DNA of 34,288 bases, from assembly GCA_048881705.1 (NCBI GenBank), contig JBHLSH010000040.1:1-34288 (forward strand), written 5' to 3'. The position numbers were made by a program, and so were the translations under genes. Source of the DNA: Candidatus Heimdallarchaeota archaeon. Lineage in GTDB: Archaea > Asgardarchaeota > Heimdallarchaeia > Hodarchaeales > Hodarchaeaceae. The notes beneath the pieces are model-generated. The model searched no databases. It worked only from the letters and a program-made list of their open reading frames with translations, and had not been told where the DNA came from. Below are positions 22,289 to 33,110 of the stretch, piece by piece (position 1 is the stretch's first letter; each line of letters opens with the position of its first letter).

Positions 22289-23749
22289 GTGACAACTCCT
22301 CAATCCGCATCCCAGGTTCCCTCCACTTCCCTCCTAAAGTTTGAACCTACAGTAACTGAACAAATGTTACTTCCGCAATTACAAGCATATAATCTTCTGA
22401 TCTTATACAATCGCCCTACGAGCTTATTCCGGATCTTAGCGTTCTTTTCTTTGTTTTACTGCAACCAGATGGAGGGACGGATCCTCATCCTTACAAAAAA
22501 GAGTTTTCAGAAGGAGCTACAGGTAGAACTCAAGAAACGGATCAAATTACATTCCTCTATCCTAAATGGGGCCATCCTACCCAATGCACGTAGAACTGAT
22601 TATGGGCAATTCCCCCTAATTGTCTCGACTCCGAGTACGACAAAGAATGACATTATGAACCACCTGGTTACCGTCGATCACTTTGGATTGATATTAATAG
22701 ATCATGCGGAAATGGGCGCTAGTTCTCGCACTCTACGCTGGCTTTGTTCCCAGTTCAACCACATTCGCCGCTGTGGATTTACCCAAATGACGGAAAGGGG
22801 ACGTTTGAAGCGTGCCCAACTGAATATGGGATTGAATCGAATTATTTCTTATGAACTGGCACCAAAGGGCCCAACACGCCCAAATCTACAGCACTACCCA
22901 ATTCCTCTACCTCAGGAATATCACTTCCTCCTTGATATTCTGAATGAAATTCGGAAATATGAACTGAAAGCCCTCCAGAATCTAGGGTTTCCCGTGTCAC
23001 CCAAAAGCTCACAACGGGAAATCGCTCTGCTTCATGATACATTGAAAACTGACCAGGCTCGCGCAAAGCTCGTGAAAACGGGTAATTTACTCAGAATAAT
23101 CAACCTCCAAAAAACAGTAGTTTCTAAAGGTTTTCCCGCCGCCCTCGACTACCTCCAAAGACTCGAGGATCAACTGTCTGTTGATCAAGACTTCTCGGGT
23201 AAACACGGACTTAATGAGTTCCTCTCAAACCCAAAAATAATGAAAATCAGGGATTTCCTTTTTACTTACAAGGATCTCATGCACCCAAAAATCCAGATGT
23301 TATTGAAGATTGTACGCGAAAATACAGGTCTAATATTGGTGATTACCCCCAATTTCGACATCGCAAGCTATATAACTTCTATTGTTCAGGCCCATGAGAT
23401 TCCCCTTTCCTATTTTTCAGACCCTCTTAGTAAGTACAGTGAAATTCAAATCAAACAACGCTTGGCAAAAATTAGTGGTTTCCAAACCCGGGTAGCTATT
23501 GCTAATACAGTGAATACGGTCTTAGCGGAGCGAGCCAAGATAATAATCGGATTTGAGGTATCGGCAGCCTTAATGGAACGCTTCGATAGGATCGAAGTAG
23601 AAATTCCTAGAATTTTTCTTATCGCAAAGCAAACCACTGAAGAGCAACGATTTTTTCAACTAAAAAACCTTGGTCGACCTCGAACTACACAAACCTCTGA
23701 CGTAATTGAGGGCGAATACCAGGGTAAGAACAAGAGTGATTCATCCTGA
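22289..23749 (+). CDS. Hef/FANCM/Mph1-like SF2 helicase homolog, predicted ATPase-dead, without ERCC4 nuclease
   Basis: Collinear with the recalled archaeal Hef sequence (IVSTPSTTKND, insertion domain PIPLP...KGFPAALDYLQRL, HPKIQML, FLIAKQTTEE). There is no GKT, DEAH reads DHAE at 22700-22711, and motif VI reads ERFDRIEV. Confidence 0.8.
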   Translation: MTTPQSASQVPSTSLLKFEPTVTEQMLLPQLQAYNLLILYNRPTSLFRILAFFSLFYCNQMEGRILILTKKSFQKELQVELKKRIKLHSSILNGAILPNARRTDYGQFPLIVSTPSTTKNDIMNHLVTVDHFGLILIDHAEMGASSRTLRWLCSQFNHIRRCGFTQMTERGRLKRAQLNMGLNRIISYELAPKGPTRPNLQHYPIPLPQEYHFLLDILNEIRKYELKALQNLGFPVSPKSSQREIALLHDTLKTDQARAKLVKTGNLLRIINLQKTVVSKGFPAALDYLQRLEDQLSVDQDFSGKHGLNEFLSNPKIMKIRDFLFTYKDLMHPKIQMLLKIVRENTGLILVITPNFDIASYITSIVQAHEIPLSYFSDPLSKYSEIQIKQRLAKISGFQTRVAIANTVNTVLAERAKIIIGFEVSAALMERFDRIEVEIPRIFLIAKQTTEEQRFFQLKNLGRPRTTQTSDVIEGEYQGKNKSDSS

Positions 23750-24522
23750 GATATCTCTCTTCATCGAACTTATTGGAATATATGACGTGCCCAAGGCAGT
23801 TCGCATATAGACGAATAGCCCACCTAAGTCTTGTTCATCCTCCCTCCCATATGTTTGCTATTCAGGCCCGGACTCATATTCGGCGCGTTACTACTGGTAT
23901 ATTATCCTTTATTTACGAAAAATTTGCCGCAGCTAAACAAATGGGCACAGATAACCTCCGTCACCTTATCGACCTCCATAACAACACATTACAGAGATAT
24001 TGGAACGGGAAGGGCGTTGAAACGTACATCTCTTACTTAGAGGAAGCGATTTATTCACTCATTGAGTATTTTCTAGATAAATTTTGTTTCACTTCCGACC
24101 AACGGGATATTCCTGTTTCCATTCCCATTATGCTCTATCAAATAATTGCATCTCCGGCATTGGGGTTAGTTGGACAACCCTCGGCCGTTTTTCAACATGC
24201 TGACGGTACGGTACTAGTATTGATTCAAAGTTGGCGAGACTCGCATAAGGATATGGAGAAGATGGGAGTCCAGGCAGCGATCTATAACCAGATTTTGACT
24301 TCAATGGGATTTCAGAACACAGAATTCTTCTATGTCAACTATCAGTCCTCAGAGATCGTTTATCGTTCAGTCACTCCCGATGATGTTACGCTTCTCGATC
24401 AAACGCTGTCAGACATTGAGGAACAGTACTTTGAGGGAGAATTTCCACGATCAGCGGCTCCACCTTGCGGATCCTGTGAGTATTTTTTACTATGCGAAAC
24501 TCGACAGAAGGTGATCTACTAA
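23746..24522 (+). CDS. AddB/RecB/Cas4-like PD-(D/E)XK Fe-S nuclease homolog, predicted catalytically dead
   Basis: YLSSSNLLEYMTCPRQFAY N-terminal motif, QAAIY, and CGSCEYFLLC (four-Cys iron staple). Motif II reads GQPS and motif III has no acidic residue or Lys. The first ATG/GTG/TTG is 23773, but the conserved motif begins upstream of it, so a CTG 23746 start is inferred. Confidence 0.78.
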   Translation: MRYLSSSNLLEYMTCPRQFAYRRIAHLSLVHPPSHMFAIQARTHIRRVTTGILSFIYEKFAAAKQMGTDNLRHLIDLHNNTLQRYWNGKGVETYISYLEEAIYSLIEYFLDKFCFTSDQRDIPVSIPIMLYQIIASPALGLVGQPSAVFQHADGTVLVLIQSWRDSHKDMEKMGVQAAIYNQILTSMGFQNTEFFYVNYQSSEIVYRSVTPDDVTLLDQTLSDIEEQYFEGEFPRSAAPPCGSCEYFLLCETRQKVIY

Positions 24523-25422
24523 TTGGCATTGGATGTTATACAAATATTCGTCATAGCTATCTATGGTCTTCTCAAGGTTTATGAACAGTGGCTGTTAACA
24601 CCCATCCAACCTCTCGAGTACTTCATACGTCTGTTTCTCTTTTATTGGTTTCTTCAGTTCTTATTGGGTCTGGTACCTTGGCTGGAGAAAATTGTTTACC
24701 AATTGTGCTTCCCCTTTCGCTGGCTCCATGTTTTCTTACATGTCCGCGCAGCTAAACAGGTAACCGAGGAAGTAGAGAAATTACGGAAGGAATCTGACGA
24801 GAGCTATGACAAACTGCTTGATACCAGTAACCTTCGGGCAACGCTGGTCTCTGGCCTCGATACCGCAGATGAAAATCCAGGATTAGTTTTAGGTATCAAT
24901 AGATTACACCATGCCCGTATGATTGCCTTTGCTCCTTTGAGATTTGCATTAGCAACCGCAGCAGTCTTTGTATTGGTCACTTTTGTCTACTTGTATGTCC
25001 CGATCGATCCATTAAAGAAAATGTTTGAAGTGCCTGTCCTGGTTTCACACTTTTATTTTTACATTGGTATTTTTGGAGTTCTATTTCCCTCCCGTAACGA
25101 TATGTTCTATTATTATCATGCGGCGCTTATCAATCTCAACGTTCGTCCCATATGGCTATATTGGTCCTTGGGAGTATATGTGCTTGTGATTTTAGAGATT
25201 CTTTGGCGTACAGAGGATTTTTTCATATCCCTTTTTGTTGCAACTATCGCATTTCACCTTTACATCCTCGGTCTCTTTAGTGTTGCGATTTTTGCTCTAG
25301 GGCGTAAAGCAAGTCCATCAGAGATTTTTTTCTTCCCCTTTGATCGGTTGCGTGATTGGAAGAACATGCAAGAAGAGGGAGCAGATCTTACATTAATGGC
25401 ATTAGAGGATTTGGATTTATAA
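24523..25422 (+). CDS. M50B/DUF3267-like polytopic membrane metalloprotease homolog lacking the catalytic Glu
   Basis: FPFRWLHVFLH (HExxH changed to HVxxH, 24727-24741), IAFAP, LFPSRND, several TM helices. The TTG start directly abuts the upstream stop. Confidence 0.7.
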   Translation: MALDVIQIFVIAIYGLLKVYEQWLLTPIQPLEYFIRLFLFYWFLQFLLGLVPWLEKIVYQLCFPFRWLHVFLHVRAAKQVTEEVEKLRKESDESYDKLLDTSNLRATLVSGLDTADENPGLVLGINRLHHARMIAFAPLRFALATAAVFVLVTFVYLYVPIDPLKKMFEVPVLVSHFYFYIGIFGVLFPSRNDMFYYYHAALINLNVRPIWLYWSLGVYVLVILEILWRTEDFFISLFVATIAFHLYILGLFSVAIFALGRKASPSEIFFFPFDRLRDWKNMQEEGADLTLMALEDLDL

Positions 25423-25472: not shown

Positions 25473-26207
25473 TTATTGGATATCTGAAAGCGCAGCTAGA
25501 TTCCACTTGGAAGAAAACGGATACTCACCAAATCGAGAAAAAAAAACTTCAAATGAACCATTATCTTTTACGATATAACAATTAATACACGTAAATTCGC
25601 CAATGACTCCTTGGGCATACTGTTTTCCAAAGTGTGAATGAGGAGCGTTCTGATCGGAAGATTGAACAATTAGATGATTTGTAAAGACAATTGGTACTTG
25701 TAGCTGTGAAGCGAGAATTTTCATGTCTAGTAGGTGATCCGCTAGGAGAGCAATCCATTTTGGTTTCTCTTTCCCCATAAAACAGGCTGCATCTAAGGGA
25801 CTACCAACCAAAGTGTCCAGAACGACTAGATCGTATTTTGAGTTTCCCGATTCATCTAAGAATTTTCGAAAGAAAATAATCTGTTCCACGAGCGACTCTG
25901 GTTTTACGATAGAAATCTGATCTAGGTGCTGAGGTTTCTGTATGATTTTTTTTAAGTTTCCTATACGTAAATGCCCGCAAAAGTCGCTGTATAATACTTG
26001 AGCGTCTGAATTCTGCGTCCAAAGTTCCTTTATGATCTGAAGGCAGAACCAGGTTTTTCCTGCCCCACTATCACCAAATATCGAATATAAATAACCTGGA
26101 CGGAGACCACCTGTTACGCGATCTAGGCTCGGGATGCCAAAAGGAAATTTTCCTAGCTGATTCCATTGGGAGATTATATCACGCAAACTCGTGATCTTCA
26201 ACATCAC
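25473..26207 (-). CDS. Rad51/RadA paralog (RecA-fold ATPase, no N-terminal HhH domain)
   Basis: FGIPSLDRVTGGLRPG, Walker A GDSGAGKT, VLYSD, Walker B LVVLDT, PIVFTNH. It lacks the RadB KHR motif. Confidence 0.85.
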   Translation of the reverse strand: MMLKITSLRDIISQWNQLGKFPFGIPSLDRVTGGLRPGYLYSIFGDSGAGKTWFCLQIIKELWTQNSDAQVLYSDFCGHLRIGNLKKIIQKPQHLDQISIVKPESLVEQIIFFRKFLDESGNSKYDLVVLDTLVGSPLDAACFMGKEKPKWIALLADHLLDMKILASQLQVPIVFTNHLIVQSSDQNAPHSHFGKQYAQGVIGEFTCINCYIVKDNGSFEVFFSRFGEYPFSSKWNLAALSDIQ

Positions 26208-26661
26208 TTTTCACTTCCACGACGGTTATGTCAGAGTGGATTCTACTCCCTCTGAGATCGCTCTCTGCCAAAAAAAATACTTGCATTCTCGTACAGAGGT
26301 AGTTTAAACCCATAAACGCTTCATTTGAAAAATTACGGATATATTTCGGCAGATGTATTATCATGGTTTTGAATCCCAGGTTTGCGGCGGCATGGAGTCT
26401 TTTTGTGGCAAAAAGGATGTGGTAGGTCTCAAAACGAGGAATCTGAAGAAAAAAGAGAGAGTTTACCAATTGAGCCTTTTTTGCTACATGCAAAGCCTGC
26501 AGAAAAATGGGAAGTGGGATAGTGCGATAGTCTACCCACAATATTTGTGCTCTTAATAATGGCAACCACTCAGGACTAAGTAACAGTTTCACTAAGCTCA
26601 AATAATTACCTTGCAATAACTTTGGGGGAGAAATCGAGGAAGTTCTTTGCACCTTCTCCAC
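26179..26661 (-). CDS. Degenerate RecA-fold protein without Walker A
   Basis: The strand/helix order ILWVD - NSLFFLQIP - FKTMIIH - LNYLCTRMQVFFLAE parallels the RecA core. It overlaps the Rad51 paralog by 29 nt. Confidence 0.55.
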   Translation of the reverse strand: MEKVQRTSSISPPKLLQGNYLSLVKLLLSPEWLPLLRAQILWVDYRTIPLPIFLQALHVAKKAQLVNSLFFLQIPRFETYHILFATKRLHAAANLGFKTMIIHLPKYIRNFSNEAFMGLNYLCTRMQVFFLAESDLRGSRIHSDITVVEVKSDVEDHEFA

Positions 26662-26663
26662 CG

Positions 26664-27737
26664 CTAGACTTTCTTTTCTGTTCTTATCTCAAGAAGGGCC
26701 TCAGGTGTGTCTGCTAAATTCTCCTGAAATACATACCAATAAGGAATACCAAATAGACCAATAATAAGCACTAACCACATTAATGGGGCAGGAATTGGGT
26801 GGGGGGGTAGCTCCATAAATGGGAAAATATCTGATCTGGGGCCAACCTGACCTGAGATTTGAATTGACATTCTAACCAGGATAGGTTCTGTTGTCTCTAT
26901 GATTTCGGGTGAAATCATGATGGCTATGGAATAAATGGGTACTTGACGATTAAACACAAGATTCTGAGCAATTCCTATCTGGTGATTACCGTCAAAATGG
27001 GTAGTTTGGCCTTCAATAGTAACGGAATCGATACCAATCCCTTCAACGGACAGATTTACCTGTGTTTCGAGCATTTGGGAGGCGGGATCTTCAATGAGGA
27101 CCGTAAGGAGGCCAGTACCGAGCAGTTTTGTACGCGACCATTGGTATTTCAAGACATTTGGCTGAATCTGGAAATTTCGTTCAGCCCCCAGTATTGGTAG
27201 GACTTTCCATTCCGTCGCTGAACTAGGTTGAAACCCCAATATCGCGGCTTCTAGGATCCGCACGTTTATACCTGGATTATTCCAAGAAAACCCTCCATCA
27301 AAGTTCAAAACGATTTCTAGCTCGTAGTAGGTCTGAGGAGTATGATTAAGGGGGAGTAGCAAGGATTGGGGCAATTCAAACTGATATGCTAGCGCTCGAA
27401 CTCCGATGCTATCCCGAATCTCTTCATATTGCTTGAAGACACCTTCTGAAATATCACCATTAAGATTCACAGTCACGAGAATCTGATCTAACTCATCACC
27501 GATGTTTTGAAGGGTAATGTTGAGTAAAACACGTTCCCACACCTCTGAAAAACTTACGGTTGTATAGAACTTATAGTGGCCTTCAGTTATTTGGACAGAC
27601 CAACCCAGATCCACTATTTCGCTTCTCAACGCTTCGACATCAGACGGGGTGGCCTTAACTGGGTTTGCCACAAATAGACCAAAACCGGACGTACTCATGA
27701 TTAAGAGTAGCGTAACCAAAGTAAATCCATTAGACAT
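26664..27737 (-). CDS. Type I membrane protein with beta-rich extracellular domain
   Basis: Signal peptide ending NPVKA, C-terminal TM (LMWLVLIIGLFGIPYWYVF), acidic tail. ATG 27737 lies 4 nt after the upstream stop and is preferred to 27776. Confidence 0.75.
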   Translation of the reverse strand: MSNGFTLVTLLLIMSTSGFGLFVANPVKATPSDVEALRSEIVDLGWSVQITEGHYKFYTTVSFSEVWERVLLNITLQNIGDELDQILVTVNLNGDISEGVFKQYEEIRDSIGVRALAYQFELPQSLLLPLNHTPQTYYELEIVLNFDGGFSWNNPGINVRILEAAILGFQPSSATEWKVLPILGAERNFQIQPNVLKYQWSRTKLLGTGLLTVLIEDPASQMLETQVNLSVEGIGIDSVTIEGQTTHFDGNHQIGIAQNLVFNRQVPIYSIAIMISPEIIETTEPILVRMSIQISGQVGPRSDIFPFMELPPHPIPAPLMWLVLIIGLFGIPYWYVFQENLADTPEALLEIRTEKKV

Positions 27738-27741
27738 AACG

Positions 27742-28317
27742 CTACGGCCCCCCTGATAAGAAAGTTGTGAGGACAAGTAGTGTTAGATTGAAAATTGCTC
27801 CCCCTATCCCAATACGAGATATTTTTTCATTCTGTGCAAGATCATTGAATGATGTGTACCCTAGTCGGAGCTTTCGGACTGTACGAATCTCTACCCACCT
27901 ATAATGCCTAATTGGATGATTTGTAATGGTGGATTTAGTGCCAAGGGGAATACCTTCCTTGTTAAAGGCGTCAAGTAGAAGGTGCGAGTACCAACCCACC
28001 AAACTGCCAACGAAAAGGAAATTCACAAGGGGAGATTCAATAATTTGGTCAATATACCACAGAGGAAAAAAATAGATGCCAGTCCACGGGGAATGGGTTA
28101 GAGGATGTCGATATCGACGTAGGAGAACCCCGTTATGATCCCATCGGGCACCTACTCGACGATCCAACCAGTTTGGCAATAAACTCAAGCAAGCCACCGC
28201 GAACGCTAATAGGGAAAATCCCCAGGCTAATTGCATTTGCTCAGCCCGCACAACGAAATAGAATATTAATAAGTGGATCAACCCAAGAGCAAAGAGGTAA
28301 TGTGTGAGACTTTTCAC
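27742..28317 (-). CDS. YdjM/DUF457/DUF1286-like membrane metal-dependent hydrolase
   Basis: THYLFALG, LPNWLDR, RHPLTHS, SHLLLDAFNKEGIP. GTGA start/stop overlap with the upstream gene. Confidence 0.78.
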   Translation of the reverse strand: MKSLTHYLFALGLIHLLIFYFVVRAEQMQLAWGFSLLAFAVACLSLLPNWLDRRVGARWDHNGVLLRRYRHPLTHSPWTGIYFFPLWYIDQIIESPLVNFLFVGSLVGWYSHLLLDAFNKEGIPLGTKSTITNHPIRHYRWVEIRTVRKLRLGYTSFNDLAQNEKISRIGIGGAIFNLTLLVLTTFLSGGP

Positions 28318-31300
28318 AGACTCCCTTCCTTACGACGGTTGATCACTAGGTTGCCTGTAGAAATCATCACAACTAAAACAATAGCACCAATTACTATTTG
28401 GGGAAAAAGTTCGTCGTTGAAAGGAACAGACGATTGGTTACTACCAGAAGAAGGATTCGCATTGGTAGAATTTACCTCTGACTCCCCTTCAACAGTAAAA
28501 GGTCCTATAACGCGCACCTGTTCTTGCCCAATATCGTCTGTTGCGACAATTCGAAAGGAATATGTTCCTATATCCAACCAAACCGTAAACGTATAAGTTT
28601 GGCCAGACCTGTGCGAAGGATATTGATCTCCATTAACCTCCAAAAAAACCGCAGTAACCTGATAATCATCAGTTACGTCTACTGTGACTTGAACATTACC
28701 TCCATCCTCTTGAAAATTCGCTTGCTGAATAGTACTATTCCCGATCACAGGTGGGGAGTCTGTTGCATTAAATGTCCCCAGTATAATCCTTTGGGCACCA
28801 TGAATATCAGAAATTACAAGTGAATAATTCCATAATGTTCGTGCGAGCAGGGGTGAACGGAAAATCCATCTCTGTGTCGTGCTTCCAATGGATTCATAGA
28901 TCAGGACACCTGTCACATTTAGGGCGCTTTCATCATTTATGAGTTCAAGGTAGACTGCTGAGGTGTCTATTGATGCATTTTCCTTATTGACAAGTATCGT
29001 GAGAGTAAAGTTTTGCCTTGCTTTCGCATAATTATCAATGAAGATATTGGGAGCAAACCATGAAGTGTAATAGGTACTTGAATGAGAGGGACTACCTAGG
29101 TCCCAAGGATACCATACCATGAGGATTATTGAGAGATTCTGAGGCATTATGTGAATTTGGCCCTCATACCTGTTCCAGATTGCCTGGTAGGTAAGAGGGT
29201 AGTTCTGTCCATTTATCTCAATTGTCACCTGATCTATTGGGAGTCCGATGGTATCCACCTCTACTTGCGCTTCATAATACACGGACTGCCACGTAAAATC
29301 AAATGAAGCGACGGTAGGCGCAGGAGGATACCACGTTACGGTGAAATGACGCATGTCATACTCGCCCAAAGTGGTACGGGCGTATAAAGTGATTCCCCAG
29401 ATCCCAGGAAATGGAAGCTGAAAATCTAGGGTATAATTCTGGGTGAAAAAATCCCATTGTAAGTCGCCAACATAAGATCCATTTCGCCAAACCCCTACAC
29501 TCTCGAAATCAGGGTTGTTTTGTAAAAGGGTTTGAACGTTGTAGCTACCAGCACCATCTACTTCCACCAAACGAGGGTCAATCAATAGATCAGCGGAGGG
29601 GACAATGGAAAAGTCTACTGTTTGGTGAACATTATTCCCTGCCTCGTCAAAAGCATACGCTGTGAGTTGATATTGACCAACTGTCAAATTATAAGCCATT
29701 GGGAGAGTATAGGTCTGATTTGTCGTATGGAGCCCTGAGATGAAATAGAGAATTGTAGCTCCATCAGAGGAGATAGATAAGTTAAAGTCTCCAATGTAGC
29801 TTTGGTTAAACGGGGTATCAATTTGTAGAATAGGTGGAATAGTATCAATGGAAAAACTGACCTGTTGGGTTATATTGTTAGATACCATATCTTCTACGGT
29901 TATTTTGAGAAGGTGACTCCCCTCGGACAGACTTTGGAATATAGAGGGGTATGGAGAGGGAACTGTGTTACCATCCAACCAGACTGAAACCTGGGTACCA
30001 TCCGTAAGAAAGGAAAATTGAACGTCTGAGGAAACATATGACGTATTTATGGGACTAATGATTCCCAAGGAGGGAGCAGTTGTGTCAACGGTGAAATCTG
30101 CAAATACGTGGGTCATTAAACCCCATTGGTTCACCCCATACGCATGTAGGGTATAACTACCTTCAACCAATGAGCGATACACAGTTTTATCCCATGTAAC
30201 GTTGTCAGAATCTACAGTATCGATGAAATACAAATAATTCTGGGCATTTCCGTCCAAAAAAACAGGAAAGATCCCTCCTACTGTGGTGGTGTGCGCAGGA
30301 CTGAGAATATTTACAACTGGAGGTTCTGGTTTCACCTCTAGATACATCATAGGACTCAAAGCCTCTTGGAAATACCCTGATGAGGGAGCTTGTACTTGGA
30401 GGGCATACATTCCAGGTTGATTGAATTGGATGTAGAAGTCATAACGACCCGCGCCATTTGTTACGTCTACCACACTCGAAGTGCCATTGACATATAATAC
30501 AGCATCATGAGCAGTCAGAGGGCCCGTGATCTCCCCAAGGACTAGTCCATCTAGATGAACGGTCACATTTATTGTAGTCGTGGCAGGAGAAGTTAAGGAG
30601 ACAGCCACTTCTTCATAAACTGCAATGAGATTTTGAGTCTCTCGTAAGTAAACGTAGGTGTCATTACAACGAACCATGATATTCTTGGACCCGCGACTAG
30701 TGAAAGTATGACTGTACGGAGTCGGACCTCCACCTCCTCCAACCCAATTCTGCCAAAGGATCCCTTCTATCCAAATTTGATAACGTTCCGAGCTGTTCAC
30801 GGTAAAGTAGTAGGGATCATTAACACTTCCAATACCTGATCCGATAACTGTAAGGTCGGATATGACCCACATGGTACTAGAATCGTACTTGGTATCGCTG
30901 GGGCCTTGCGCGCGGATTGTAAATCCACCCTTATAATAGGGCGTGGACCAATTAAATGTGCCCTGCCCAAAGCCATTGAGTTGAGTTGTTCCAATTACAA
31001 ACCAGCTAGGTTCGCCATTTTTCTGCCAACTCAAGTCGATCAAATCATTAAGACCGCCCTCGAGGGTGATTATGGTCCAATTATTTGCCACCACCTCGGT
31101 AGCGATCATCACGGAGAGAGGAGGCCGTACGGTGAAGCTGAGAATAGGCGTGTTGGTTGCTCCACGATAGAATCGGGGGATATTTCCCGTGTAGGAAACT
31201 TCGACGAAGTGGAGGCCAATTTGGGTTGATCGGGAGATGAAGTAGTCAGAGATAAAGATACCGTTGGCGTCTGTTTGTGCTGTTCCTAAAAAGACCCCTG

Positions 31301-33110
31301 AAGTGGTATCTGTCAAACTAACCTCCTCAAAATAAACCGGATTCCCAATTTCATCCAATAGTTCTCCCCATATTCGAAGTGTGTGTCCTTTCACCACCTC
31401 TGAGGCATTCTGACCAGTCGCATTGAAGGTCGGATTAGAGATTATGCTAAGGTTGAAGATTTCTACATGCGCATCATAGTTAAGAGATCCAAGATAGTGA
31501 ATCTGGTATTTACTAACCCCCAAAACATGATTGGGTTCTATATAGAAGTAAAAGTCCAATCCCGGGGCTGCATTCTTAGTTTCGATAGCGGTACCATTGG
31601 AGAATTCAAGTACGATTTGACCCTCAATTAATGCTACCCCACCGGAAAGTACAGTTGCGGTGATAGTGGTAGTTGTCGCACGATCAACTATCCCTGTTCC
31701 ATAGTCTAGATCAATTGTGGTGATACCTTTGATCGTGACCATGACCTCCACTTGCTGATCTAGGATATCAGATGGTGTGTTGAATGTCCTTAATCCATAC
31801 TTATGGAACCCTACGGTGGCATTGCTCGGGATTTGGGATGTAAATATCACAAACCCGTTAATATCCAATGTTCGGTTCTCCAATGAACGATACCCATCTG
31901 TCACATCTATCAGTTCTACGTCCCCAAAAACAGGTCTAGTCCAAACATCTTCCTCTGTGACGTAAACTGAAAACTTTATCGTCTCATTGTGTCTATATAT
32001 GCTCGAATTGGTTGTCGGATCTATACGGGCGTTATCTACGATAACTAATCCTTGACTGATGTTGTCGTATATATTGGATCCACTTGCATCGGTCAAAACC
32101 GTGAAAATAGTCAACAAACCTAACGTAACGGAGCTATTGGGAGAAAAGGTAAACATAACGTCCCTTGAAGTTAAAATAATCTGGTTTATGGTTATCCTCT
32201 TTCCCCCGCGGAAATAATACGACTCTAAAGGAAGACCCACGGGATAATCTCCTACCACCGTGATATTAAATTCGGATGTTTCCGCATTTCGTTGAATTGT
32301 GGTTTGGTTCACTCGTTGAACCAGAGAGAATCCATCCCCTTCGATTTGGACGCCGAACCATGAGGAAAACGCTGGGGCCGTCCCGCTTAATCCGGACCCC
32401 GTATAATTTGCAATGAAATAGTTCAGACCAACAGGGGAGAATTCTGGGATGGGGTAACTAAAACTATGCGTTAACACTGTGGGATTACTGTCAGGATAGT
32501 AGAACGGGAGGGGACCGTATGTGTAGATAGTGGGGGTTCCTGATAAATTCTGGTTGGTCACAGAAAGATAACCCCCTTCAAAATACCAGTTTTCGAGGAT
32601 GGAGAGCGTCAGCGTAAAACTTACGGTGCCATTCTTATGAGCCACAGTCGAATTAGCATCTAGGTCCAAGAATGGAGATTGTTGGGTTCCAGGTGTTATG
32701 TCCTCTACAAAGACCTTACAGGTTCCCGAACTCGTTTGATAGCCAGGAAATCCCTGAAAATCAGCCCGAAAGATATGGGTACCAGGAGTGGAAAGGCTCC
32801 ATGGCCAAGTGCTAGTGATGCTTCCACTCACTAAGCTAATGACATCCGTTTGAGTAGAATTGAGATGAGTAATAAGAACTGAACCCGTTGGAACCGGATC
32901 CACCCCTGCATAAACAATGACGGTAAAAACTGGAGGTTCGCTTGTTCCAACAACCCCAGTGTCGCTCAAAAGAGTGGTAGTGGTACTTAAAGGAGCCGCA
33001 AGGATAGATGTGGAGCTTGAAAGAACAACAATTACACTTACAATAACCCAGAGTAAAAATCCTCTTTGTAGTTTATTTTCATGCTTCATGTTAGCAGAGC
33101 CATTGAACAT
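28314..33110 (-). CDS. 1598-aa cell-surface protein with tandem Ig-like domains
   Basis: Signal peptide, beta-strand-rich repeats, many NxS/T sequons, Ser/Asn linker, C-terminal TM + RRK tail. No catalytic motif recognised. Confidence 0.88.
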   Translation of the reverse strand: MFNGSANMKHENKLQRGFLLWVIVSVIVVLSSSTSILAAPLSTTTTLLSDTGVVGTSEPPVFTVIVYAGVDPVPTGSVLITHLNSTQTDVISLVSGSITSTWPWSLSTPGTHIFRADFQGFPGYQTSSGTCKVFVEDITPGTQQSPFLDLDANSTVAHKNGTVSFTLTLSILENWYFEGGYLSVTNQNLSGTPTIYTYGPLPFYYPDSNPTVLTHSFSYPIPEFSPVGLNYFIANYTGSGLSGTAPAFSSWFGVQIEGDGFSLVQRVNQTTIQRNAETSEFNITVVGDYPVGLPLESYYFRGGKRITINQIILTSRDVMFTFSPNSSVTLGLLTIFTVLTDASGSNIYDNISQGLVIVDNARIDPTTNSSIYRHNETIKFSVYVTEEDVWTRPVFGDVELIDVTDGYRSLENRTLDINGFVIFTSQIPSNATVGFHKYGLRTFNTPSDILDQQVEVMVTIKGITTIDLDYGTGIVDRATTTTITATVLSGGVALIEGQIVLEFSNGTAIETKNAAPGLDFYFYIEPNHVLGVSKYQIHYLGSLNYDAHVEIFNLSIISNPTFNATGQNASEVVKGHTLRIWGELLDEIGNPVYFEEVSLTDTTSGVFLGTAQTDANGIFISDYFISRSTQIGLHFVEVSYTGNIPRFYRGATNTPILSFTVRPPLSVMIATEVVANNWTIITLEGGLNDLIDLSWQKNGEPSWFVIGTTQLNGFGQGTFNWSTPYYKGGFTIRAQGPSDTKYDSSTMWVISDLTVIGSGIGSVNDPYYFTVNSSERYQIWIEGILWQNWVGGGGGPTPYSHTFTSRGSKNIMVRCNDTYVYLRETQNLIAVYEEVAVSLTSPATTTINVTVHLDGLVLGEITGPLTAHDAVLYVNGTSSVVDVTNGAGRYDFYIQFNQPGMYALQVQAPSSGYFQEALSPMMYLEVKPEPPVVNILSPAHTTTVGGIFPVFLDGNAQNYLYFIDTVDSDNVTWDKTVYRSLVEGSYTLHAYGVNQWGLMTHVFADFTVDTTAPSLGIISPINTSYVSSDVQFSFLTDGTQVSVWLDGNTVPSPYPSIFQSLSEGSHLLKITVEDMVSNNITQQVSFSIDTIPPILQIDTPFNQSYIGDFNLSISSDGATILYFISGLHTTNQTYTLPMAYNLTVGQYQLTAYAFDEAGNNVHQTVDFSIVPSADLLIDPRLVEVDGAGSYNVQTLLQNNPDFESVGVWRNGSYVGDLQWDFFTQNYTLDFQLPFPGIWGITLYARTTLGEYDMRHFTVTWYPPAPTVASFDFTWQSVYYEAQVEVDTIGLPIDQVTIEINGQNYPLTYQAIWNRYEGQIHIMPQNLSIILMVWYPWDLGSPSHSSTYYTSWFAPNIFIDNYAKARQNFTLTILVNKENASIDTSAVYLELINDESALNVTGVLIYESIGSTTQRWIFRSPLLARTLWNYSLVISDIHGAQRIILGTFNATDSPPVIGNSTIQQANFQEDGGNVQVTVDVTDDYQVTAVFLEVNGDQYPSHRSGQTYTFTVWLDIGTYSFRIVATDDIGQEQVRVIGPFTVEGESEVNSTNANPSSGSNQSSVPFNDELFPQIVIGAIVLVVMISTGNLVINRRKEGSL
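29597..30330 (-). repeat. Three tandem ~80-aa Ig-like modules within the surface protein (approximate bounds)
   Basis: PPVVNILSP, DTTAPSLGIISPINTSY and DTIPPILQIDTPFNQSY recur about 240 nt apart. They are followed by EGSYTLHAY, EGSHLLKIT and VGQYQLTAY respectively. Confidence 0.6.

What the first reader, a model, noticed from the sequence alone, without database searches (positions are those of the whole stretch)
25473..26661. Overlapping pair of one ATP-binding and one degenerate RecA-fold protein, resembling eukaryotic Rad51-paralog heterodimers
Seen: 25473..26207 has intact Walker A/B but no HhH domain, no RadB KHR and no KaiC-type C-terminal motif; 26179..26661 keeps only the RecA strand/helix pattern; the genes overlap by 29 nt. 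Known: RAD51D-XRCC2, Rad55-Rad57 and Csm2-Psy3 are paralog dimers that load or cap filaments, and Psy3/Csm2 lack Walker motifs. Bacterial ImuA/SulA are also degenerate RecA folds. Inference: an archaeal mediator heterodimer, possibly informative about the origin of RAD51 paralogs.
Basis: partly seen in the sequence, partly recalled or inferred. Interest (0 to 1): 0.76.

Follow-up and report, generated by a model that had tools for sequence, protein, structure and literature searches.

The report
Archaeal Rad51-paralog-like RecA-fold gene pair
Two overlapping genes in a Hodarchaeales (Asgard archaeon) genome encode an ATP-binding Rad51/RadA-like protein and a stripped-down, motif-less RecA-fold partner that are predicted to bind like neighbours in a Rad51 filament. 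They resemble the eukaryotic RAD51D-XRCC2 pair, but they occur in only one genus and their cellular role is untested.

Summary
On the minus strand, 26661..26179 encodes a 160-aa (or 157-aa) protein and 26207..25473 a 244-aa protein. They overlap by 29 nt (26 nt from the ATG).

- **ATPase.** It has Walker A and B motifs and a Rad51/RadA-like fold with no HhH domain. The catalytic Glu is missing in 15 of 16 orthologues.
- **Small protein.** It matches no sequence family, but its model (pLDDT 83) is a RecA core closest to Rad51-family chains (Z about 10.5). It has no Walker motifs.
- **Co-occurrence.** The genes are adjacent in every genome that has them. Both are absent or both broken in four relatives. 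Both are under purifying selection.
- **Predicted contact.** The complex scores ipSAE 0.80 against 0.01 for the best control. The ATPase's N-terminal FxxA-equivalent strand and ATP-cap region dock on strand 3 and the dead nucleotide site of the small protein. This may partly reflect the model's memory of solved Rad51 filaments.
- **Distribution.** Both families are confined to one Hodarchaeales genus. They are therefore a parallel to eukaryotic RAD51 paralogues, not their ancestor.
- **Context.** The pair closes a tightly packed five-gene operon that starts with a giant Ig-like surface protein and two membrane proteins, next to a RadA paralogue. This leaves a filament-capping or mediator role likely but unproven.

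The scan noted the same pair in a related genome (e1-5416315).

The parts
26179..26661 (-). Small Walker-less RecA-fold protein, 160 aa from GTG 26661 or 157 aa from GTG 26652. It is the predicted acceptor or cap subunit.
   Evidence: ORF. The family alignment A1 has 16 orthologues. The AF2 model has pLDDT 83.4 and pTM 0.80. Fold matches are VIA Z 10.5-10.6 to RadA, RAD51, XRCC2 and XRCC3, Foldseek E about 1e-4 and atlas TM 0.65-0.71 to archaeal Rad51/RadB clusters. There is no sequence-family hit. dN/dS is 0.37.
25473..26207 (-). Rad51/RadA-like ATP-binding protein without an HhH domain, 244 aa from GTG or 243 aa from ATG 26204. It is the predicted donor subunit.
   Evidence: Pfam Rad51 scores 23.7 bits against a cut-off of 22, and NCBIfam RadB scores 49 bits against a cut-off of 172. 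The profile search of the PDB gives RadA 1.5e-11, then DMC1, RAD51D and RadB. The AF2 model has pLDDT 78.5. Foldseek tops are RAD51, RAD51D and RadA at E 4e-15 and TM 0.78. dN/dS is 0.21.
26179..26207 (-). Overlap of the two genes, 29 nt (26 nt from the ATG). In most relatives the junction is a 4-nt or 1-nt overlap.
26181..26201 (-). Residues 3-9 of the ATPase (LKITSLR). This N-terminal strand aligns with the RadA FxxA polymerisation motif and is predicted to pair with strand 69-73 of the small protein.
   Evidence: In alignment A3, KITSL lies opposite GFISA and DFETA of the genome's RadA proteins. The complex contacts 1:5-8 with 2:69-72 have an expected error of 0.7-0.9 A.
26052..26075 (-). 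Walker A motif GDSGAGKT (residues 45-52) of the ATPase.
   Evidence: G45, G48, G50 and K51 are invariant in 16 sequences.
25815..25829 (-). Walker B motif LVVLD (residues 127-131) of the ATPase.
   Evidence: D131 is invariant.
25977..25979 (-). Cys77, at the position of the catalytic Glu of the RadA/Rad51 motif IDTEG.
   Evidence: In alignment A3, YSDFCGHLR lies opposite YIDTEGTFR. Only 1 of 16 orthologues has Glu at this position.
26664..27776 (-). Operon gene 3. A 357-370-aa protein with an N-terminal signal or TM segment and a C-terminal TM segment. No family match.
27742..28317 (-). Operon gene 2. A 191-aa YdjM/DUF1286-like polytopic membrane protein.
   Evidence: Pfam YdjM scores 27 bits against a cut-off of 29, and DUF1286 scores 21 bits. 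Synteny.
28314..33110 (-). Operon gene 1. A 1598-aa surface protein with Ig-like repeats, an N-terminal signal and a C-terminal TM segment.
   Evidence: (Big_13, Big_3_3).
33290..34288 (+). Divergently transcribed RadA paralogue with an HhH domain, cut by the window end. It is the third RadA-like gene of the genome and has LKKG where RadA has FxxA.
   Evidence: It is syntenic with the operon in 10 of the 14 further loci examined and in the 3 pair-less genomes.

Best explanation
The two genes encode an obligate heterodimer of RecA-fold proteins built like one step of a Rad51/RadA filament.

**The two subunits.** The 244-aa subunit binds ATP through its Walker A and B motifs. It has lost the catalytic Glu, the Gln of the TNQ motif (His here, TNH) and the RadA-type L1/L2 DNA loops, so it is probably a nucleotide-bound but non-hydrolysing protomer. 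The 160-aa subunit is a minimal RecA core with no N-terminal donor motif and no Walker motifs.

**The predicted contact.** The ATPase's N-terminal strand is equivalent to the FxxA polymerisation motif. That strand and the ATP-cap region (residues 225-228) dock on the edge strand (69-73) and the vestigial nucleotide pocket (Y20, P105) of the small subunit.

**What follows (inferred).** The dimer exposes one free acceptor face, which is the ATPase's own pocket plus its real ATP site, and no free donor motif. It would accept the FxxA of a terminal RadA protomer in an ATP-dependent way and block further growth at that end. This is the filament-end capping or mediator logic described for RAD51D-XRCC2 and proposed for RadB.

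**Status of each step.**
- Predicted or shown here: the folds, the interface geometry, the co-occurrence and co-loss, and the purifying selection.
- Inferred: ATP binding without hydrolysis, any contact with RadA or DNA, and any role in recombination.

The pair is co-transcribed with a giant surface protein and two membrane proteins. That link is unexplained, and it may mean the dimer works at the membrane.
For: **Folds.**
- The small-protein model has pLDDT 83.4. Its best matches in an unfiltered search of 48,161 chains are XRCC3, XRCC2, DMC1, RAD51C/D, Rad51, RecA, FlaH, Psy3-Csm2 and RadB at Z 10.5-8.5.
- The 50 best Foldseek matches listed for the ATPase model are all RAD51, DMC1, RAD51-paralogue or RadA structures; the best has E 4e-15 and TM 0.78.
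- Full-length profile hits of the ATPase family are to RadA, DMC1, RAD51D, RAD51B and RadB. KaiC matches only the P-loop region.

**Motifs.**
- Walker A and B are invariant. The catalytic Glu is lost in 15 of 16 orthologues.
- The N-terminus aligns to the RadA FxxA motif.

**Complex.**
- ipSAE is 0.80 against a best control of 0.01. That mark was reached by 58 of 80 solved complexes and 2 of 110 mismatched pairs. The runs agree in at least 78% of contacts and the partner's pLDDT is at least 73.
- The contacts are exactly the polymerisation strand and the cap-over-nucleotide-site surfaces.

**Genetics.**
- The genes are adjacent with a -4 to +3 nt junction in 11 of 13 other genomes, and with a -35 and a +44 nt junction in the other two.
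- Both are absent in G008, G013 and G003 while the rest of the operon is intact. Those genomes nest among pair-bearing ones.
- Both carry in-frame stops in G021.
- dN/dS is 0.37 and 0.21.

**Context.** A RadA paralogue is divergently adjacent in 10 of the 14 further loci examined and in the 3 pair-less genomes.

**Literature.** XRCC2 lacks an NTD and caps RAD51 filaments. RAD51D and XRCC2 bind ATP but lack the catalytic Glu. RadB is predicted to cap RadA (PMC7618403).
Against: - No experiment or prediction here links the dimer to RadA or to DNA.
- The L1 arginines and the L2 GG of RadA are not conserved, so direct DNA binding is doubtful.
- The pair sits at the end of a five-gene operon with surface and membrane proteins whose junctions are -4 to +21 nt in almost every genome. 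That points to a shared, possibly non-recombinational task.
- The operon and the RadA paralogue persist without the pair in three genomes, so the pair is dispensable.
- The complex score may come from the model's memory of solved Rad51 filaments. No homodimer or RadA-core control was run.
- The tree does not place the ATPase inside RadA or RadB, and it groups loosely with long KaiC-like branches.
- The profile comparison of the two families is not significant, with E 0.036 and probability 1.4%.
Confidence: 0.5

Rival explanations
1. The dimer is the cytoplasmic ATP-switch or adaptor of an envelope complex formed by the giant Ig-like protein, the YdjM-like membrane protein and the type-I membrane protein of the same operon. 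This would be comparable to the RecA/KaiC-fold ArlH (FlaH) in the archaellum. It would have no role in recombination, and its Rad51-like shape would only reflect its ancestry.
For: - The five-gene order is conserved in 14 further loci at 25-45% identity, with abutting or overlapping genes.
- JGI named a relative 'archaellum bioge...'.
- FlaH is among the best fold matches of the small protein at Z 9.4.
- KaiC Pfam hits occur in 12 of 16 ATPase orthologues.
- The DNA-binding loops are degenerate.
- The tree does not separate the family from KaiC-like proteins.
Against: - KaiC hits cover only the P-loop region and fall below the cut-off, whereas Rad51/RadA/RadB hits cover the whole domain.
- The Foldseek list for the ATPase is entirely Rad51/RadA.
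- The segment SDFxGxLR matches the RadA segment DTEGTFR and shows no double Glu, which by my recall KaiC-type proteins carry there.
- The three membrane and surface genes persist intact without the pair in three genomes.
- No ArlI/ArlJ-type partner is present in the operon.
Confidence: 0.28
2. The whole conserved block is one contact-dependent DNA-exchange and recombination apparatus, in which the RecA-fold dimer tethers or regulates recombination at the membrane. The block comprises the RadA paralogue, the five-gene surface/membrane/RecA-fold operon, and the convergent membrane protein, Cas4-like and Hef-like genes.
For: - Block synteny is conserved across the genus: RadA paralogue, then the operon, then the convergent memb299 and Cas4-like genes.
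- The Hef-like helicase scores 61 bits and the PD-(D/E)XK/Cas4-like protein is detected by Pfam and NCBIfam.
- From my own knowledge, not checked here, Sulfolobales cluster UV-inducible Ups pili with DNA-processing genes and use cell contact for DNA exchange.
Against: - This is purely contextual.
- No DNA translocase, pilus or secretion ATPase is recognisable in the block.
- The parts separate in some genomes. The Hef-like, memb299 and Cas4-like genes move or drop out in G008, G013, G010 and G016.
- Synteny among members of one genus may be inherited rather than selected.
Confidence: 0.12
3. The pair is a decaying remnant of a RadA/RadB duplication with no remaining function.
For: - It is lost in three genomes and pseudogenised in one.
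- The catalytic and DNA-binding residues are degenerate.
- The small protein evolves faster, with dN/dS 0.37.
Against: - The ORFs are intact in at least 16 genomes that have diverged to 21-41% identity.
- Interface-type residues and Walker motifs are invariant.
- dN/dS is well below 1.
- The models are confident and a confident interface is predicted.
Confidence: 0.05

Closest known systems
Human RAD51D-XRCC2 (the DX2 module of BCDX2 and of the XRCC3 complex)
   Same: - It is a hetero-assembly of two RecA-fold paralogues joined by the Rad51-type interface, in which the linker and motif of one protomer dock on the core of the next.
- The terminal subunit has no N-terminal domain and can only accept.
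- The donor subunit keeps Walker motifs but lacks the catalytic Glu (PMC7618403).
- XRCC2, XRCC3 and RAD51D chains are among the best fold matches.
   Different: - No sequence-level relationship is detectable for the small protein.
- The small protein has no Walker A at all, whereas XRCC2 binds ATP.
- The ATPase lacks the RAD51D N-terminal domain.
- The family is confined to one archaeal genus.
- It is encoded in an operon with surface proteins.
- No partners equivalent to RAD51C or XRCC3 are known.
Yeast Shu complex Psy3-Csm2 (and human SWSAP1-type Walker-less Rad51 paralogues)
   Same: These are small RecA-core proteins that have lost Walker motifs and act as heterodimers. Psy3-Csm2 (3vu9_B) matches the small protein at Z 8.7 over 133 aligned residues with rmsd 3.5.
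   Different: - In Psy3-Csm2 both subunits are degenerate, whereas here one keeps an ATP site.
- There is no sequence similarity.
- The DNA-binding and Rad55-Rad57 links of Shu are not testable here.
Archaeal RadB (TIGR02237)
   Same: It is an NTD-less, roughly 210-250-aa Rad51-family protein with Walker A and B. It is the best NCBIfam hit of the ATPase at 49 bits and E 6.6e-13. RadB is predicted to cap RadA filaments.
   Different: - The score is far below the equivalog cut-off of 172 bits.
- The IDTEG Glu is lost.
- RadB is not known to need a Walker-less partner.
- Conventional RadB-like genes of a sister family score 109 bits and sit in a different context with no small partner.
- The genome has a separate RadB-like candidate on contig 55.
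Archaeal single-domain KaiC-like/aRadC proteins (for example Sso2452, PH0284) and ArlH/FlaH
   Same: These are NTD-less RecA-superfamily ATPases of similar size. FlaH (Z 9.4), PH0284 (Z 8.0) and Sso2452 (Z 7.4) appear in the fold list of the small protein. PF06745 gives weak hits on the ATPase.
   Different: - Sequence hits are limited to the P-loop and fall below the cut-off.
- The motifs after strand 2 follow RadA, not KaiC.
- These proteins form homo-oligomers, whereas here a heterodimer with a dead partner is predicted.

Membership tests
Rad51/RadA/RadB family (Pfam PF08423), for the 244-aa protein | Whole-domain match to the family model above the curated cut-off | tested here: met
   PF08423 scores 23.7 bits against a cut-off of 22, over residues 27-188. 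Nine of 16 orthologues hit at E<0.01. The match is marginal.
Rad51/RadA/RadB family (Pfam PF08423), for the 244-aa protein | Walker A GxxxxGK[ST] and Walker B hhhhD | tested here: met
   GDSGAGKT at residues 45-52 and LVVLD at 127-131. G45, G48, G50, K51 and D131 are invariant in 16 sequences.
Rad51/RadA/RadB family (Pfam PF08423), for the 244-aa protein | Catalytic Glu of the IDTEG motif | tested here: not met
   The position is Cys77 here. It is Ser, Cys, Gln, Asn, Lys or Arg in 15 of 16 orthologues and Glu in only one. RAD51D and XRCC2 lack it too.
Rad51/RadA/RadB family (Pfam PF08423), for the 244-aa protein | Rad51/RadA-type three-dimensional core | tested here: met
   Foldseek E 3.8e-15 and TMq 0.78 to RAD51. 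All 50 matches listed are Rad51, DMC1, RAD51-paralogue or RadA structures. The model has pLDDT 78.5.
RadA/Rad51 recombinase proper | N-terminal HhH domain, and L1 arginines with an L2 GG loop for DNA binding | tested here: not met
   No HHH Pfam hit and only about 25 residues before the core. The L1 region reads FGSPL with no arginines, and L2 is shortened and lacks the GG.
RadB (NCBIfam TIGR02237 equivalog) | Score above the equivalog cut-off | tested here: not met
   49 bits against a cut-off of 172.4. A RadB-like protein of a sister family scores 109 bits.
KaiC/ArlH-type single-domain ATPases (PF06745) | Whole-domain match above the cut-off | tested here: not met
   23.1 bits against a cut-off of 26.6, covering residues 22-60 only. 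PDB KaiC hits are restricted to profile positions 15-75.
Walker-less or NTD-less Rad51-paralogue partner (XRCC2, Psy3/Csm2 type), for the 160-aa protein | RecA-type alpha/beta core | tested here: met
   The AF2 model has pLDDT 83.4 and pTM 0.80. VIA wide gives Z 10.5 (154 aligned, rmsd 4.6) to a 9omy chain and Z 10.4 (147 aligned, rmsd 4.5) to XRCC2 in 8faz_X. Atlas TM is 0.65-0.71 to Rad51/RadB clusters. The margin over other RecA-superfamily ATPases is only 1-2 Z units.
Walker-less or NTD-less Rad51-paralogue partner (XRCC2, Psy3/Csm2 type), for the 160-aa protein | Loss of nucleotide-binding motifs and no N-terminal domain or donor motif | tested here: met
   The P-loop position reads G18-N-Y20 with no GK[ST]. 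The Walker B strand ends IIHLP with no Asp. The N-terminal 12 residues are unconserved and modelled at low confidence.
Walker-less or NTD-less Rad51-paralogue partner (XRCC2, Psy3/Csm2 type), for the 160-aa protein | Heterodimer with another RecA-fold paralogue through the filament-type interface | tested here: met
   This is a prediction only. ipSAE is 0.80 against a best control of 0.01. That mark was reached by 58 of 80 solved complexes and 2 of 110 mismatched pairs. Contact agreement is at least 78% and partner pLDDT at least 73. The result may reflect likeness to solved Rad51 assemblies.
Walker-less or NTD-less Rad51-paralogue partner (XRCC2, Psy3/Csm2 type), for the 160-aa protein | Detectable sequence homology to XRCC2, Psy3, Csm2 or any Rad51-family model | tested here: not met
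   There is no Pfam or NCBIfam hit and no PDB profile hit at E<=10. hhalign against the partner ATPase family gives E 0.036 and probability 1.4%.
Recombination mediator or filament cap (functional class) | Binds the recombinase filament or ssDNA and alters filament assembly | not testable with these tools
No biochemical data exist.

The most novel reading that the evidence does not exclude
The conserved block is a previously undescribed membrane-anchored, cell-contact-coupled DNA exchange and recombination system of Hodarchaeales. The block comprises the RadA paralogue without FxxA, a giant Ig-like surface protein, two membrane proteins, the RecA-fold heterodimer, and the convergent membrane protein with Cas4-like and Hef-like proteins. 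In this reading the heterodimer links a RadA-family filament to the envelope.
Probability: 0.1. Interest if true: 0.9.

Novelty: new variant of a known kind. Interest (0 to 1): 0.57.

Why it matters
Eukaryotic recombination depends on heteromeric RAD51 paralogue complexes. In these, ATP-bound but inactive subunits and subunits lacking an N-terminal domain nucleate and cap RAD51 filaments. In archaea only single paralogues (RadB, aRadC) have been studied.

The pair described here would be an archaeal two-subunit version with a fully motif-less partner. It occurs in Hodarchaeales, an order of Heimdallarchaeia, the Asgard lineage that PMC12722695 treats as branching closest to eukaryotes. That genome also carries at least three other RadA-like genes.

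Because the pair is genus-specific, it shows that the donor-plus-dead-cap architecture can evolve repeatedly from RadA-like stock. It does not show where the eukaryotic paralogues came from. It would be a small system, readily expressed in the laboratory, for studying filament capping. Its fixed place in an operon for surface and membrane proteins is unexplained and may point to a link between the envelope and recombination.

Tried and rejected
- **Sequence searches with the small protein found nothing outside its own family.** Searches covered Pfam, NCBIfam, PDB sequences at E<=10, the word-indexed 5.8-billion protein search, and an exhaustive profile search of 1.84 billion representatives. 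The exhaustive search returned 17 hits, all 78-153 aa, so no fused form exists there.
- **The protein-atlas search by features was at chance level.** The best score was 0.80, to galactosyltransferase fragments.
- **The profile-profile comparison of the two families was not significant.** It gave E 0.036 and probability 1.4%, although the aligned register follows the equivalent strands. A tandem-duplication origin is possible but not shown.
- **The maximum-likelihood tree did not place the ATPase.** The family forms its own long-stem clade (100/98) in an unresolved fork with other long branches.
- **Looking for distant counterparts in sister families found none.** RadB-like genes of family f4 sit between a 263-264-aa gene (not identified here) and a 330-343-aa gene followed by a Cys-rich 606-630-aa gene, with no small partner.
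- **The atlas search for the 370-aa operon protein was uninformative.** The model has pLDDT 0.45 and TM is at most 0.35.
- **Literature searches found no description of this pair**.
- **A pseudogene or chance-ORF reading of the small gene was rejected** on conservation and dN/dS.
Full report
**What is there.** Two ORFs lie on the minus strand at 26661..26179 (160 aa) and 26207..25473 (244 aa). They overlap by 29 nt counted from the GTG, or 26 nt from the ATG that follows it. Database records use a 157-aa and a 243-aa form. The small gene is upstream. Record titles of relatives name Hodarchaeota or Heimdallarchaeota MAGs, so the organism is an Asgard archaeon of the Hodarchaeales.

**The 244-aa protein.**
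- It just passes the Pfam Rad51 cut-off, at 23.7 bits against 22. Its best NCBIfam hit is RadB at 49 bits, far below that model's cut-off of 172.
- A profile of 16 orthologues hits RadA, DMC1, RAD51D, RAD51B and RadB over the whole domain. KaiC is hit only around the P-loop.
- The AF2 model has pLDDT 78.5, and the 50 best Foldseek matches listed are all RAD51, DMC1, RAD51-paralogue or RadA structures (E 4e-15, TM 0.78).
- Walker A (GDSGAGKT, residues 45-52) and Walker B (LVVLD, 127-131) are invariant.
- Aligned with the genome's own RadA proteins, YSDFCGHLR lies opposite YIDTEGTFR. The catalytic Glu is Cys here and is missing in 15 of 16 orthologues.
- TNQ reads TNH, the L1 arginines and the L2 GG are not kept, and there is no HhH domain.
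- The first nine residues align with the RadA FxxA polymerisation motif, with KITSL opposite GFISA and DFETA.

**The 160-aa protein.**
- It has no hit in Pfam or NCBIfam, and none in PDB sequences even at E 10.
- An alignment of 16 orthologues (21-31% identity apart from one close relative) gives a confident model with pLDDT 83.4 and pTM 0.80. The model is a beta-alpha repeat sheet.
- Foldseek ranks RadA, KaiC, RAD51C-XRCC3 and DMC1 first.
- An aligner run against 48,161 chains without any prefilter ranks XRCC3, XRCC2, DMC1, RAD51C/D, Rad51, RecA, FlaH, Psy3-Csm2, UvsX and RadB first at Z 10.5 to 8.5. Other RecA-superfamily ATPases score about 8.
- A shape search of the ESM Atlas returns mostly archaeal Rad51/RadB clusters, with some KaiC-like and unnamed bacterial ones, at TM 0.65-0.71.
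- The fold is therefore a RecA core, closest to the Rad51 family by a small margin.
- The P-loop position reads G-N-Y and the Walker B strand ends IIHLP, so nucleotide binding is lost.

**Are they a pair?**
- In every locus with enough flank, the ATPase gene follows the small gene on the same strand. The junction is a 4-nt or 1-nt overlap or a 3-nt gap in 11 of 13 other genomes, and -35 and +44 nt in the other two.
- Both families are present in 16 or more of the 22 genomes of the window's GTDB genus.
- Three genomes (G008, 99% complete; G013; G003) keep the upstream genes of the operon and the RadA paralogue but lack both pair genes. G003 has a 32-residue remnant of the small gene, with stops, just after the preceding gene.
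- A tree of two upstream operon proteins nests these three genomes, with 99% support, inside a clade of pair-bearing genomes. These are therefore losses.
- In G021 both genes carry in-frame stops, including within Walker A.
- Against a close relative, dN/dS is 0.37 for the small gene and 0.21 for the ATPase.

**Predicted contact.**
- With paired alignments, the complex scores ipSAE 0.80 against a best control of 0.01. That mark was reached by 58 of 80 solved complexes and 2 of 110 mismatched pairs. The runs agree in at least 78% of contacts and the partner's pLDDT is at least 73.
- ATPase residues 3-9 pair with strand 69-73 of the small protein, which includes the invariant F71.
- ATPase residues 152-164, 200-207 and 225-228 cover residues 20-21, 41-54 and 105-107 of the small protein. 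The covered surface is the small protein's dead nucleotide site.
- This is the geometry of adjacent Rad51 protomers as described in PMC7618403.
- The caveat is serious. Such interfaces are common in the PDB, so the pass may show likeness rather than binding. No homodimer control could be run.

**Mechanism proposed.** The dimer has one free acceptor face, made of the ATPase pocket and its real ATP site, and no free donor motif. It could take the FxxA of a terminal RadA in an ATP-dependent manner and stop growth at that end. This is the logic shown for XRCC3-RAD51C-RAD51D-XRCC2, where XRCC2 lacks the NTD and caps the filament and RAD51D and XRCC2 bind ATP but lack the catalytic Glu. The same logic has been predicted for RadB. 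This step is inference.

**Context that complicates the picture.**
- The pair is the end of a five-gene operon: a 1598-aa Ig-repeat surface protein, a YdjM-like membrane protein, a 357-370-aa bitopic protein, the small protein and the ATPase.
- The operon junctions are -4 to +21 nt in nearly all of 14 further loci, although the proteins have diverged to 25-45% identity.
- A RadA paralogue is divergently adjacent. The genome has two stronger RadA genes, of which this is the third, and it carries LKKG in place of FxxA.
- A membrane protein, a Cas4-like gene and a Hef-like gene are convergent.
- A role of the dimer in an envelope complex, or in a larger surface-linked recombination system, cannot be excluded.

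**Distribution and novelty.**
- The small-protein profile finds nothing in 379 other genomes of the phylum. It finds only 17 clusters, all 78-153 aa, in 1.84 billion proteins.
- The ATPase profile scores 290-356 bits inside the genus and at most 65 bits elsewhere in the class.
- The tree leaves the family's origin unresolved.
- No paper found describes the pair.
- It is best seen as a lineage-specific, probably convergent version of the eukaryotic paralogue heterodimer.
- The scan had flagged the same pair in a related genome.

Noticed in passing
window 33290-34288 (+); G000 contigs C1:22334-23416 and C82:12744-13778: The genome has three HhH-bearing RadA-like genes. Two score 317 and 302 bits on Pfam Rad51 and keep FxxA (GFISA, DFETA). 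The window copy scores 210 bits and reads LKKG at that position. Orthologues of the window copy are 68-73% identical across the genus and 53-55% identical in the sister family of the same order.
   Followed up: partly
G000 contig C49, locus L094:1342-2175 (-): This is a further 278-aa RadA-clade paralogue with a degenerate Walker A (GEWSRGS) and no Walker B Asp, although it keeps the L2 GG. It lies directly downstream of a TnsA-like endonuclease gene (Pfam 56.7 bits).
   Followed up: partly
G000 contig C55:15370-15990 (+): This 206-aa RadB-like protein has Walker A GQPGTYKT. It is the nearest in-genome relative of the pair's ATPase by profile score (37.7 bits). Its context was not examined.
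   Followed up: no
L096 (G008), L097 (G013), L098 (G003), L032 (G021): Both pair genes are lost together in three related genomes and broken together in a fourth. The surface and membrane part of the operon and the RadA paralogue stay intact in all four.
   Followed up: yes
window 22289-25422 (+): Three convergent genes lie here: a Hef-like SF2 helicase (NCBIfam 61 bits), a PD-(D/E)XK/Cas4-like protein and a 299-aa membrane protein. The last two stay next to the pair in most relatives.
   Followed up: no
L101-L105 (family f4 genomes G029, G031, G033, G025): Conventional RadB-like genes (109 bits on TIGR02237) sit in a conserved neighbourhood between a 263-264-aa gene (not identified here) and a 330-343-aa gene followed by a Cys-rich 606-630-aa gene.
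   Followed up: partly
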